A stretch of DNA of 64,000 nucleotides from Eledone cirrhosa (lineage: Eukaryota): assembly GCA_964016885.1 (NCBI GenBank), contig OZ024762.1, positions 22,072,001-22,136,000 of the forward strand, read 5' to 3'. A program made the position numbers and the translations under genes. The stretch's first letter is position 1. Each line of letters begins with the position of its first letter. This document shows, one piece after another, positions 22,423-22,805 of this stretch. The notes beneath the pieces are model-generated. The model made no database searches and had not been told where the DNA came from. It saw nothing but the letters and a program-made list of their open reading frames with translations.

Positions 22423-22805
22423 AGGAAAAAGTAAGACCCCGACGGCTGAGCTCAAGCCGTTTCGACGGCTAATTCTGTACTGAATGAAAAATTAATTCTG
22501 GTATTTAAATAGCCGAACTTATCAAGGGGTAATTCCATATATGGTCAAAGAGATAATCACCAGGATTGGTCACATCACAAAATCCTGGTGATTATCTCTT
22601 TGACCATATATGGAATTACCCCTTGATAAGTTCGGCTATTTAAATACCAGAATTAATTTTTCATTCGGTACAGAATTAGCCGTCGAAACGGCTTGAGCTC
22701 AGCCGTCGGGGTCTTACTTGTTCCTATTACCCACTCTACTACCCTAAGTATTGAGTACTTTGGTGCGTTATGGTCCACCTGGTTCCTTACCACATTTCCT
22801 TCGTT
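22423..22805. mobile_element. HHR-bearing short element family C as a fold-back (arms ~22423-22567 and ~22581-22726)
   Basis: Long inverted arms with a 13-nt spacer. Shared tail attacccactctactaccctaagtattgagtac also occurs at 3013-3149, 11461-11658 and 28295-28440. Confidence 0.8.
22618..22712 (+). ncRNA. Type I hammerhead ribozyme family C with U3-A8 core variant (mirror on - at 22436-22530)
   Basis: acccc-TTGATAA(22623)-long helix II (cggcta/tagccg; tacc.gaat/attc.ggta)-GAAA(22685)-cggct tgagctc agccg-TC^ggggt. Confidence 0.78.

What the first reader, a model, noticed from the sequence alone, without database searches (positions are those of the whole stretch)
22436..22712. Hammerhead with a natural compensatory U3-A8 catalytic core (UUGAUAA) and full helix III
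The core reads TTGATAA instead of CTGATGA. Both changes hit positions 3 and 8, which form the known tertiary Watson-Crick pair, so pairing is preserved. Helix I (acccc/ggggt), a long helix II, helix III (cggct/agccg) and the GUC site are intact in both inverted arms. CUGANGA-based searches would miss it. Three other truncated copies show it is a mobile family.
Basis: partly seen in the sequence, partly recalled or inferred. Interest (0 to 1): 0.8.

Follow-up and report, generated by a model that had tools for sequence, protein, structure and literature searches.

The report
Jumping-gene hammerhead with drifting core pair
This hammerhead-shaped RNA motif, predicted to cut itself, sits at the end of an abundant animal retrotransposon and carries an already published core variant, but thousands of older copies record that core pair passing through two wobble phases and a mismatched phase while the element kept spreading, so fast cutting is likely not needed for it to jump.

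Summary
Both 147-bp inverted arms hold a type I hammerhead fold with core UUGAUAA. They are the 3' ends of a Penelope-like retrotransposon with Hydra-clade motifs (717-aa RT plus GIY-YIG ORF in full copies). U3-A8 is not decay: 1518 of 2467 motif-matched copies carry it. It is also not new: it was published for Penelope hammerheads in 2014, and this scan noted U3-A8 hammerheads in 32 findings on other DNA (none in this genome).

The mismatched C·A subfamilies left 623 of 2735 tail-bearing copies and kept an ORF under purifying selection. A natural CUGANAA hammerhead was reported inactive, and hammerhead mutants did not block Penelope insertion in vitro. Best reading: a slow, likely protein-assisted ribozyme whose cutting is not limiting for transposition. 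This window copy has no ORF, and its two arms would pair with each other. Cleavage is untested.

The parts
22421..22567 (-). Left arm: inverted, 5'-truncated copy of the element's 3' end (pseudo-LTR), ending in a (TA)n tract without the tail
22436..22530 (-). Type I hammerhead motif, left arm; core TTGATAA 22525-22519, C17 at 22441
22568..22580 (.). Spacer and inversion junction between the arms
22581..22727 (+). Right arm: same 3' end of the element
22618..22712 (+). Type I hammerhead motif, right arm (helix I 22618-22622/22708-22712; 6-bp helix II stem above a lone G10.1-C11.1 pair; 6-bp helix III with a palindromic loop)
22623..22629 (+). Core box UUGAUAA: U3 at 22623, A8 at 22628
22707..22708 (+). 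Predicted cleavage site after C17 of GUC (untested)
   Evidence: hammerhead numbering from established knowledge
22728..22806 (+). Penelope-type tail present at one end only, followed by a TA-rich tract
   Evidence: tail concept from PMC8557442 and PMC11167929
3012..3074 (.). Shorter inverted remnant of the same family (helix III loop onward, tail follows); no core
11459..11583 (.). Shorter inverted remnant of the same family (from the 3' arm of helix II, tail follows); no core
28383..28441 (+). Remnant of an older subfamily (helix III of the S0/S1 type), next to an inverted tail; no core

Best explanation
The two arms are leftover 3' ends of a Penelope-like retrotransposon, and each holds an inherited U3-A8 hammerhead motif that likely works, in the element's transcript, as a slow and probably protein-assisted self-cutter whose cutting is likely not limiting for transposition. 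Shown: the arms are the element's pseudo-LTR end; the motif lies sense to the RT/GIY-YIG ORF, 1112 nt after the stop codon, and in tandem arrays C17 is 191 nt before the next ATG; both genomic ends lie 3' of the cut site (about 20 and 99 nt), so every inserted copy with a whole motif was made from RNA that was uncut or re-joined there. Shown at consensus level: the 3/8 pair went C-G, U·G, U-A, U·G, U-A, C·A, U-A while ten other core bases stayed fixed. Inferred: selection keeps the fold and a pyrimidine-purine arrangement at 3/8, but modest activity suffices, so wobble-like states (U·G, and C·A, possibly as a protonated wobble) spread for a time before U-A returned. Inferred: this window copy is inert, because it has no ORF and the upstream arm would pair with the downstream one.
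For: Element anatomy: inverted arms about 3 kb apart enclosing RT and GIY-YIG frames, in (TA)n; intact 717-aa ORF in 3542-bp tandem units. Selection on the fold: over 13 subfamily consensuses 0 of 12 core sites and 3 of 30 helix sites vary, against 46 of 72 loop II and flank sites (Fisher p 2e-5 and 6e-7). Over 16 consensuses ten core bases are invariant, 10.1-11.1 changes only G·U to G-C, and helix II shows double changes A-U to G-C, G-C to U-A and A-U to U-A. Ladder: 13 of 13 inner branches starred, positions 3 and 8 removed before tree building; U-A monophyly rejected (p-AU 3e-64); S2 keeping ancestral G8 rejected (p-AU 1e-59). Copy divergence falls from about 14% at the C-G end to 1-2% at the young end. 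All five changes at 3/8 are transitions, whereas free N7 changes five times, four or five of them transversions. C·A phase: 623 of 2735 flank-anchored copies have C3; both arms of 3 of 3 fetched long C·A copies share it; their ORF differs from U-A groups by 68 synonymous to 17 non-synonymous codons; 0 of 42 core and helix sites changed in that phase against 16 changes in 72 free sites. Literature: hammerhead mutants do not affect insertion by an anole Penelope element in vitro, and its hammerhead cuts only with protein (PMC11167929); metazoan Penelope hammerheads cut weakly (PMC4209133); a natural CUGANAA hammerhead was inactive (PMC8490949).
Against: No cleavage or expression data. In the C·A phase the core alone is not significantly conserved (0 changes, 2.7 expected, P 0.07); the signal comes from core plus helices. 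Subfamilies S1, S3-S8 were found partly with patterns that fix core and helix letters, which inflates conservation; the flank-anchored list and the BLAST-found S0 and S2 reduce but do not remove this bias. The oldest group is mixed (10 C-G, 6 U·G, 3 C·A, 3 other of 22), was defined by a CpG-prone site, and the copy-level tree of old copies is poorly resolved (10 of 60 branches starred). Ages are not strictly monotonic (S0b 8.6% on 7 copies, S1 12.5%, S7 4.4%). The root rests on age and on canonical cores in other Hydra elements, not on an outgroup sequence. In one pairwise mutagenesis only the G:C swap, not U:A, rescued this pair (PMC9901934), so even U3-A8 may be poorly active. G10.1-C11.1 has probability 0.10, and a competing hairpin over GAAA dominates in several subfamilies (0.38-0.77 in 7 of 13).
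Confidence: 0.6

Rival explanations
1. Cutting is essential: the hammerheads cut tandem transcripts to unit length, the unit circularises, and reverse transcription round the circle gives whole motifs and tandem arrays. U·G and C·A cores keep just enough protein-assisted activity.
For: Ten core bases invariant over the whole ladder. At least five motif copies spaced 3542-3543 bp at G000:C1:91.47-91.49 Mb. Model proposed in PMC4209133. Each excursion returned to U-A.
Against: Insertion was unaffected by hammerhead mutants in the one reconstituted Penelope system, and no reads began or ended at the cut site there (PMC11167929). Natural CUGANAA was inactive. Naiad elements spread without canonical hammerheads. 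Tandem arrays have other explanations.
Confidence: 0.25
2. The motif stopped cutting long ago. The fold or sequence is kept for another job (binding of the element's protein, RT start-site positioning, or a promoter in the pseudo-LTR), and U3-A8 is drift that only looks compensatory.
For: Five changes at two sites that should be constrained. 23-37% of sampled copies unpaired at 3/8. Weak junction pair and competing hairpin. U:A did not rescue in one data set. The conserved block lies next to the two RT start sites.
Against: What stays fixed is exactly the single-stranded catalytic set (U4, G5, A6, A9, G12, A13, A14, A15.1, U16.1, C17), while N7 inside it varies freely. Positions 3/8 never leave pyrimidine-purine, and 11 of 16 consensuses are Watson-Crick. 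U3-A8 cores are cited as active in vitro.
Confidence: 0.13
3. The feature is a chance match in the terminal inverted repeats of a DNA transposon or MITE.
For: 147-bp inverted arms; no Rfam hammerhead hit.
Against: Arms flank RT and GIY-YIG frames in long copies. One-sided tail, variable 5' truncation and (TA)n targets are Penelope traits. Descriptor hits 2 in 100 shuffles. The oldest subfamily has the canonical core.
Confidence: 0.01

Closest known systems
Hammerheads in pseudo-LTRs of metazoan Penelope-like elements, including the U3-A8 variant of Schistosoma mansoni Cercyon elements (Cervera and De la Pena 2014, PMC4209133; read parts 1-2 of 4)
   Same: Type I motif in the pseudo-LTR, short helix I (5 bp), U3-A8 core, G10.1-C11.1, palindromic loop III, copies in opposite orientation close together.
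   Different: Those are minimal motifs with almost no helix III; this one has a 5-6 bp helix III and about 53 nt between G10.1 and C11.1. The text I read reports no U·G or C·A phases and no order of subfamilies; its supplements were not opened.
Hydra clade of C-terminal-endonuclease Penelope-like elements (Craig et al. 2021, PMC8557442; read section 11, passages, and part 2 of the supplement)
   Same: Single ORF with RT then GIY-YIG, DKT, CxCX5C linker, CxxC and CxH around the end of the endonuclease, (TA)n targets, inverted 5'-truncated copy, tail.
   Different: All 26 Hydra rows in their hammerhead table have C3-G8, and none has this motif's sequence. Unit 3.5 kb against 'generally <3 kb'; RWR in place of RWK; tail about 80 nt against 30-40.
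PAc Poseidon element of Anolis carolinensis (Frangieh et al. 2024, PMC11167929; passages)
   Same: Penelope element with hammerhead at the pseudo-LTR/ORF junction, AT-rich targets, tail between two RT start sites.
   Different: Different clade, canonical core, hammerhead overlaps the start codon; here C17 lies 191 nt before the ATG.
Natural U3-A8 hammerheads (Perreault et al. 2011, PMC3088659; section 8)
   Same: Same covariation of the tertiary pair.
   Different: Isolated examples; no lineage history in the section read. Their figure of inactive variants (S7) was not opened.

Membership tests
Type I hammerhead ribozyme | Core U4 G5 A6 A9 G12 A13 A14, A15.1-U16.1 and an H17 site in a three-way junction | tested here: met
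Type I hammerhead ribozyme | Three helices predicted to form | tested here: met
   Probabilities 0.94-0.96 for each arm alone; 0.0 when both arms are on one transcript; helix II covaries across subfamilies
Type I hammerhead ribozyme | Watson-Crick pair between positions 3 and 8 | tested here: met
   U-A in this copy and subfamily; not met in S0b and S2 (U·G) or S5, S5b, S6 (C·A)
Type I hammerhead ribozyme | G10.1-C11.1 pair at the base of helix II | tested here: inconclusive
   Letters present in 15 of 16 consensuses, G·U in the other, but a lone pair with probability 0.10 here
Type I hammerhead ribozyme | Match to an Rfam hammerhead model | tested here: not met
   No hammerhead family among 32 matches at E<=10 in 22400-23150; the long helix II insert and variant core are likely reasons (inference)
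Type I hammerhead ribozyme | Tertiary contact between stem I and loop II | not tested
   No search for such a contact was made
Type I hammerhead ribozyme | Site-specific self-cleavage after position 17 | not testable with these tools
   Needs an assay
Penelope-like element, endonuclease-positive | One ORF with RT (YRDD) followed by a GIY-YIG-type endonuclease | tested here: met
   717-aa ORF with YRDD and VIY...AYIG, read by motif; Pfam gave no hit for a 477-aa part
Penelope-like element, endonuclease-positive | Pseudo-LTRs, tandem or inverted 5'-truncated copies, one-sided tail | tested here: met
Hydra clade of Penelope-like elements | DKT motif and CxCX5C linker | tested here: met
   against the definition
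Hydra clade of Penelope-like elements | CCHH motif absent; CxxC and CxH near the end of the endonuclease | tested here: met
   One Cys only between VIY and YIG; CNLC and CKH present (by inspection)
Hydra clade of Penelope-like elements | N-terminal RWK motif | tested here: inconclusive
   RWR near the N-terminus, no exact RWK
Hydra clade of Penelope-like elements | Insertion into (TA)n | tested here: met
Hydra clade of Penelope-like elements | Canonical hammerhead near the 3' end | tested here: inconclusive
   Canonical core only in the oldest subfamily; variant cores in the other 15 consensuses
Hydra clade of Penelope-like elements | Placement inside the clade in an RT tree | not tested
   No reference proteins were fetched
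Naiad clade | Endonuclease N-terminal to RT | tested here: not met
   Endonuclease is C-terminal

The most novel reading that the evidence does not exclude
One genome holds a time-ordered fossil record of a ribozyme active-site base pair evolving step by step (C-G, U·G, U-A, U·G, U-A, C·A, U-A), and an autonomous retrotransposon made hundreds of copies with a mismatched core that published assays call inactive. That would be natural evidence that Penelope hammerhead cutting is dispensable for transposition, or that the element's protein rescues a C·A core, and it supplies a ready natural allelic series to decide which.
Probability: 0.55. Interest if true: 0.62.

Novelty: new variant of a known kind. 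Interest (0 to 1): 0.45.

Why it matters
What hammerheads do in Penelope-like elements is still open: PMC8557442 calls the function unclear and asks whether they are mere passengers, and one in vitro system found them unnecessary for insertion. The U3-A8 variant alone adds little. The lineage adds a natural experiment: sixteen successive subfamilies with four states of the 3/8 pair in an otherwise fixed core, an intact ORF in young copies, and hundreds of C·A copies. It also shows a compensatory change in a catalytic RNA core with its wobble intermediate preserved. I found no such report in searches of an open-access library that lacks several key biochemical papers, so absence from print is not established.

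Tried and rejected
Rfam: the whole-window scan listed only microsatellite-driven miRNA-type matches among the 150 of 380 shown, and the local scan gave no hammerhead. Pfam: no hit for a 477-aa part of the ORF; the 717-aa protein was not scanned. First guess of a Naiad element was rejected (endonuclease is C-terminal). First copy-level tree (89 rows, after leaving out most near-identical S8b copies) was distorted by truncated and inverted upstream flanks; I used subfamily consensuses instead and dropped S4b (2 copies), and L219 and L239_p from the S0 groups. The 2467-copy pattern missed the abundant young subfamily S9 (G·U in helix III), which the flank-anchored pattern found, so 37% overstates and 23% is the better C3 share; both under-sample old copies. 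Sequencing runs: no RNA holder listed; contigs of three runs of one study showed no C at 22623 above the 5% cut, but they also lacked the neighbouring C at 22631 that several subfamilies carry, so I take this as a filter or strain effect and as inconclusive. Idea that C·A was the intermediate between C-G and U-A: rejected, it is nested between U-A subfamilies. Idea that S2 kept an ancestral G8: rejected by AU test. Idea that C·A copies were only moved in trans: disfavoured, their own ORF is under purifying selection (three copies). Primary papers on 3-8 exchanges (Przybilski and Hammann 2007; Nelson and Uhlenbeck 2008; Martick and Scott 2006) were not held, so no measured rates for U-A, U·G or C·A are given; the C·A+ wobble idea is recalled, not from a call. 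bioRxiv 10.64898/2026.07.22.740005 (passages) had nothing on core variants. I used 'octopus' as a search word on a guess from genome size and microsatellite load; the host was not determined. Dimer folding through the palindromic loop III was not modelled.

Full report
Observation. Window 22421-22567 and 22581-22727 form a 147-bp inverted repeat with two mismatches, in a TA-rich tract. Each arm, read outward, holds helix I (5 bp), core TTGATAA, G10.1, a 53-nt helix II region, C11.1, GAAA, a 6-bp helix III with a palindromic loop, GUC and the second strand of helix I. The right arm folds as the three-way junction (z -2.54, 0 of 200 shuffles), and a strict descriptor gives 2 hits in the window against 2 in 100 shuffles. 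Helix II is a 6-bp stem above a UU/U loop and a lone G10.1-C11.1 pair of probability 0.10. With both arms on one transcript the hammerhead helices have probability 0.0. Rfam does not recognise the motif. The three shorter copies in the window lack the core.

What it belongs to. A DNA search of the genome gave 1190 candidates; the 40 scored are 98-100% identical, several as inverted pairs about 3 kb apart. Those pairs enclose RT and GIY-YIG reading frames. A tandem array holds 3542-bp units with an intact 717-aa ORF, sense to the motif, which lies 1112 nt after the stop codon and has C17 191 nt before the next ATG. DKT, a CxCX5C linker, CxxC and CxH, the missing CCHH and (TA)n targets match the Hydra clade as defined in PMC8557442; RWK reads RWR, and no RT tree was made. 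Copies end either about 20 nt or 99 nt past C17, the difference being the tail. The window copy is a 5'-truncated, inverted remnant with the tail on the right.

Is U3-A8 fixed? A motif pattern with 3, 7 and 8 free matches 2467 places, reversed control 0. Position 8 is not A in 40 (5 of these are C3-G8). A8 without U3 occurs in 909 (97 of 100 listed are C3). That leaves 1518 U3-A8. The pattern missed a large young subfamily with a G·U in helix III, so I anchored on the flanks only: 2735 tail-bearing copies, 623 with C3. In the first 100 listed I counted by hand 79 U-A, 20 C·A, 1 U·G and 0 C-G. So U3-A8 is the majority, inherited state, and C3·A8 is a large minority.

History of the pair. 203 copies were sorted into subfamilies without using positions 3 and 8, and 37 old copies were added. 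The tree of 16 consensuses, positions 3 and 8 removed, is a ladder with 13 of 13 inner branches starred: S0a C-G, S0b U·G, S0c, S1 and S1b U-A, S2 U·G, S3 and S4 U-A, S5, S5b and S6 C·A, then S6b, S7, S9, S8a and S8b U-A. The window copy is S8b. Upstream divergence of copies falls from 14% (S0a, 11 copies) to 2.2% (S8b) and 0.8% (S9), though not strictly in order. U-A monophyly and retention of ancestral G8 in S2 are both rejected by AU tests. Among old copies C3 goes with U11.1 and U3 with C11.1 (Fisher p 0.002, 17 against 17), which supports real C-G and U·G masters. But S0a is mixed (10 C-G, 6 U·G, 3 C·A, 3 other of 22), and the copy-level tree there is weak. The root rests on age and on C3-G8 in all 26 published Hydra rows. 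Whether S2's G8 lay on the main line or a side twig is unresolved.

Selection. Ten core bases and helix I are identical in all 16 consensuses; 10.1-11.1 changes once, G·U to G-C; helix II has three double changes; N7 changes five times. Over the 13 younger consensuses, 0 of 12 core and 3 of 30 helix sites vary against 46 of 72 free sites. Motif-anchored discovery inflates this for some subfamilies. In the C·A phase 0 of 42 core and helix sites changed against 16 changes in 72 free sites (P 9e-5; core alone P 0.07). C·A copies carry their own ORF, which differs from U-A groups by 68 synonymous to 17 non-synonymous codons, whereas private changes in single copies are mostly non-synonymous (6 of 8 copies). 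From S2 on, a hairpin that buries GAAA competes with the junction in 7 of 11 subfamilies, but not in S8b.

Mechanism. Shown: anatomy, orientation, both ends 3' of the cut site, counts, ladder at consensus level. It follows directly that a copy with a whole motif was reverse-transcribed from RNA uncut or re-joined at C17. From papers: metazoan Penelope hammerheads cut weakly (PMC4209133); in the anole element cutting needs the protein, and core mutants do not affect insertion (PMC11167929); a natural CUGANAA motif was inactive (PMC8490949); in one mutagenesis only G:C rescued the pair (PMC9901934), while U3-A8 is cited as active elsewhere (PMC3088659). Inferred: the motif is a slow, probably protein-assisted ribozyme under real but mild selection, so that U·G and C·A states could found subfamilies before U-A returned (0.6). 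Rivals: cutting is essential through a circular template and the wobble states suffice (0.25); the fold is kept for a non-catalytic job (0.13); chance (0.01).

Comparison and novelty. U3-A8 in Penelope hammerheads is in print since 2014, and this scan holds 32 notes on U3-A8 hammerheads in at least 24 other genomes, none in this genome or on similar sequence. New here, as far as nine searches of an incomplete library show: a Hydra-type family with this core, a full helix III and long helix II, and the ordered record of the pair with a C·A phase. Supplements of PMC4209133 and PMC3088659 were not opened and may bear on C·A or U·G variants. Verdict: real, known variant in a known kind of element, with an unreported and testable lineage history; interest 0.45.

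Noticed in passing
window 4515-4579 (-) and 4687-4751 (+); 23688-23752 (-); 33925-33983 (+); 36726-36784 (-): Five canonical CUGAUGA minimal hammerheads with palindromic loop III, of other repeat families; the first two form an inverted pair.
   Followed up: no
window 23064-23099 (-): Compact canonical minimal hammerhead (4-bp helix I, 4-bp helix II, GAAAC-GUC) 260 bp from the finding; read by eye.
   Followed up: no
window 13174-17923: Tandem array of a 311-bp unit, about 15 copies at 99% identity, whose consensus holds CTGATGA followed by a hairpin and GAAAC: a possible retrozyme-like or Penelope-derived satellite.
   Followed up: no
G000:C1:91473143-91487447 (L214): At least five motif copies spaced 3542-3543 bp; two units examined have intact 717-aa ORFs: a probably still active source locus of subfamily S9.
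   Followed up: partly
window 1461-1618 and 22815-22923: Other near-perfect inverted repeats in TA-rich tracts, likely remnants of other elements.
   Followed up: no
window 22599-22612 and all subfamilies: A palindrome (CCATATATGG) about 10 nt upstream of helix I is kept in nearly all subfamily consensuses while its flanks change; possible dimerisation or protein-binding site.
   Followed up: no
window 22728-22806: The tail is strongly conserved across subfamilies and at about 80 nt is longer than the 30-40 bp described for Penelope tails.
   Followed up: partly
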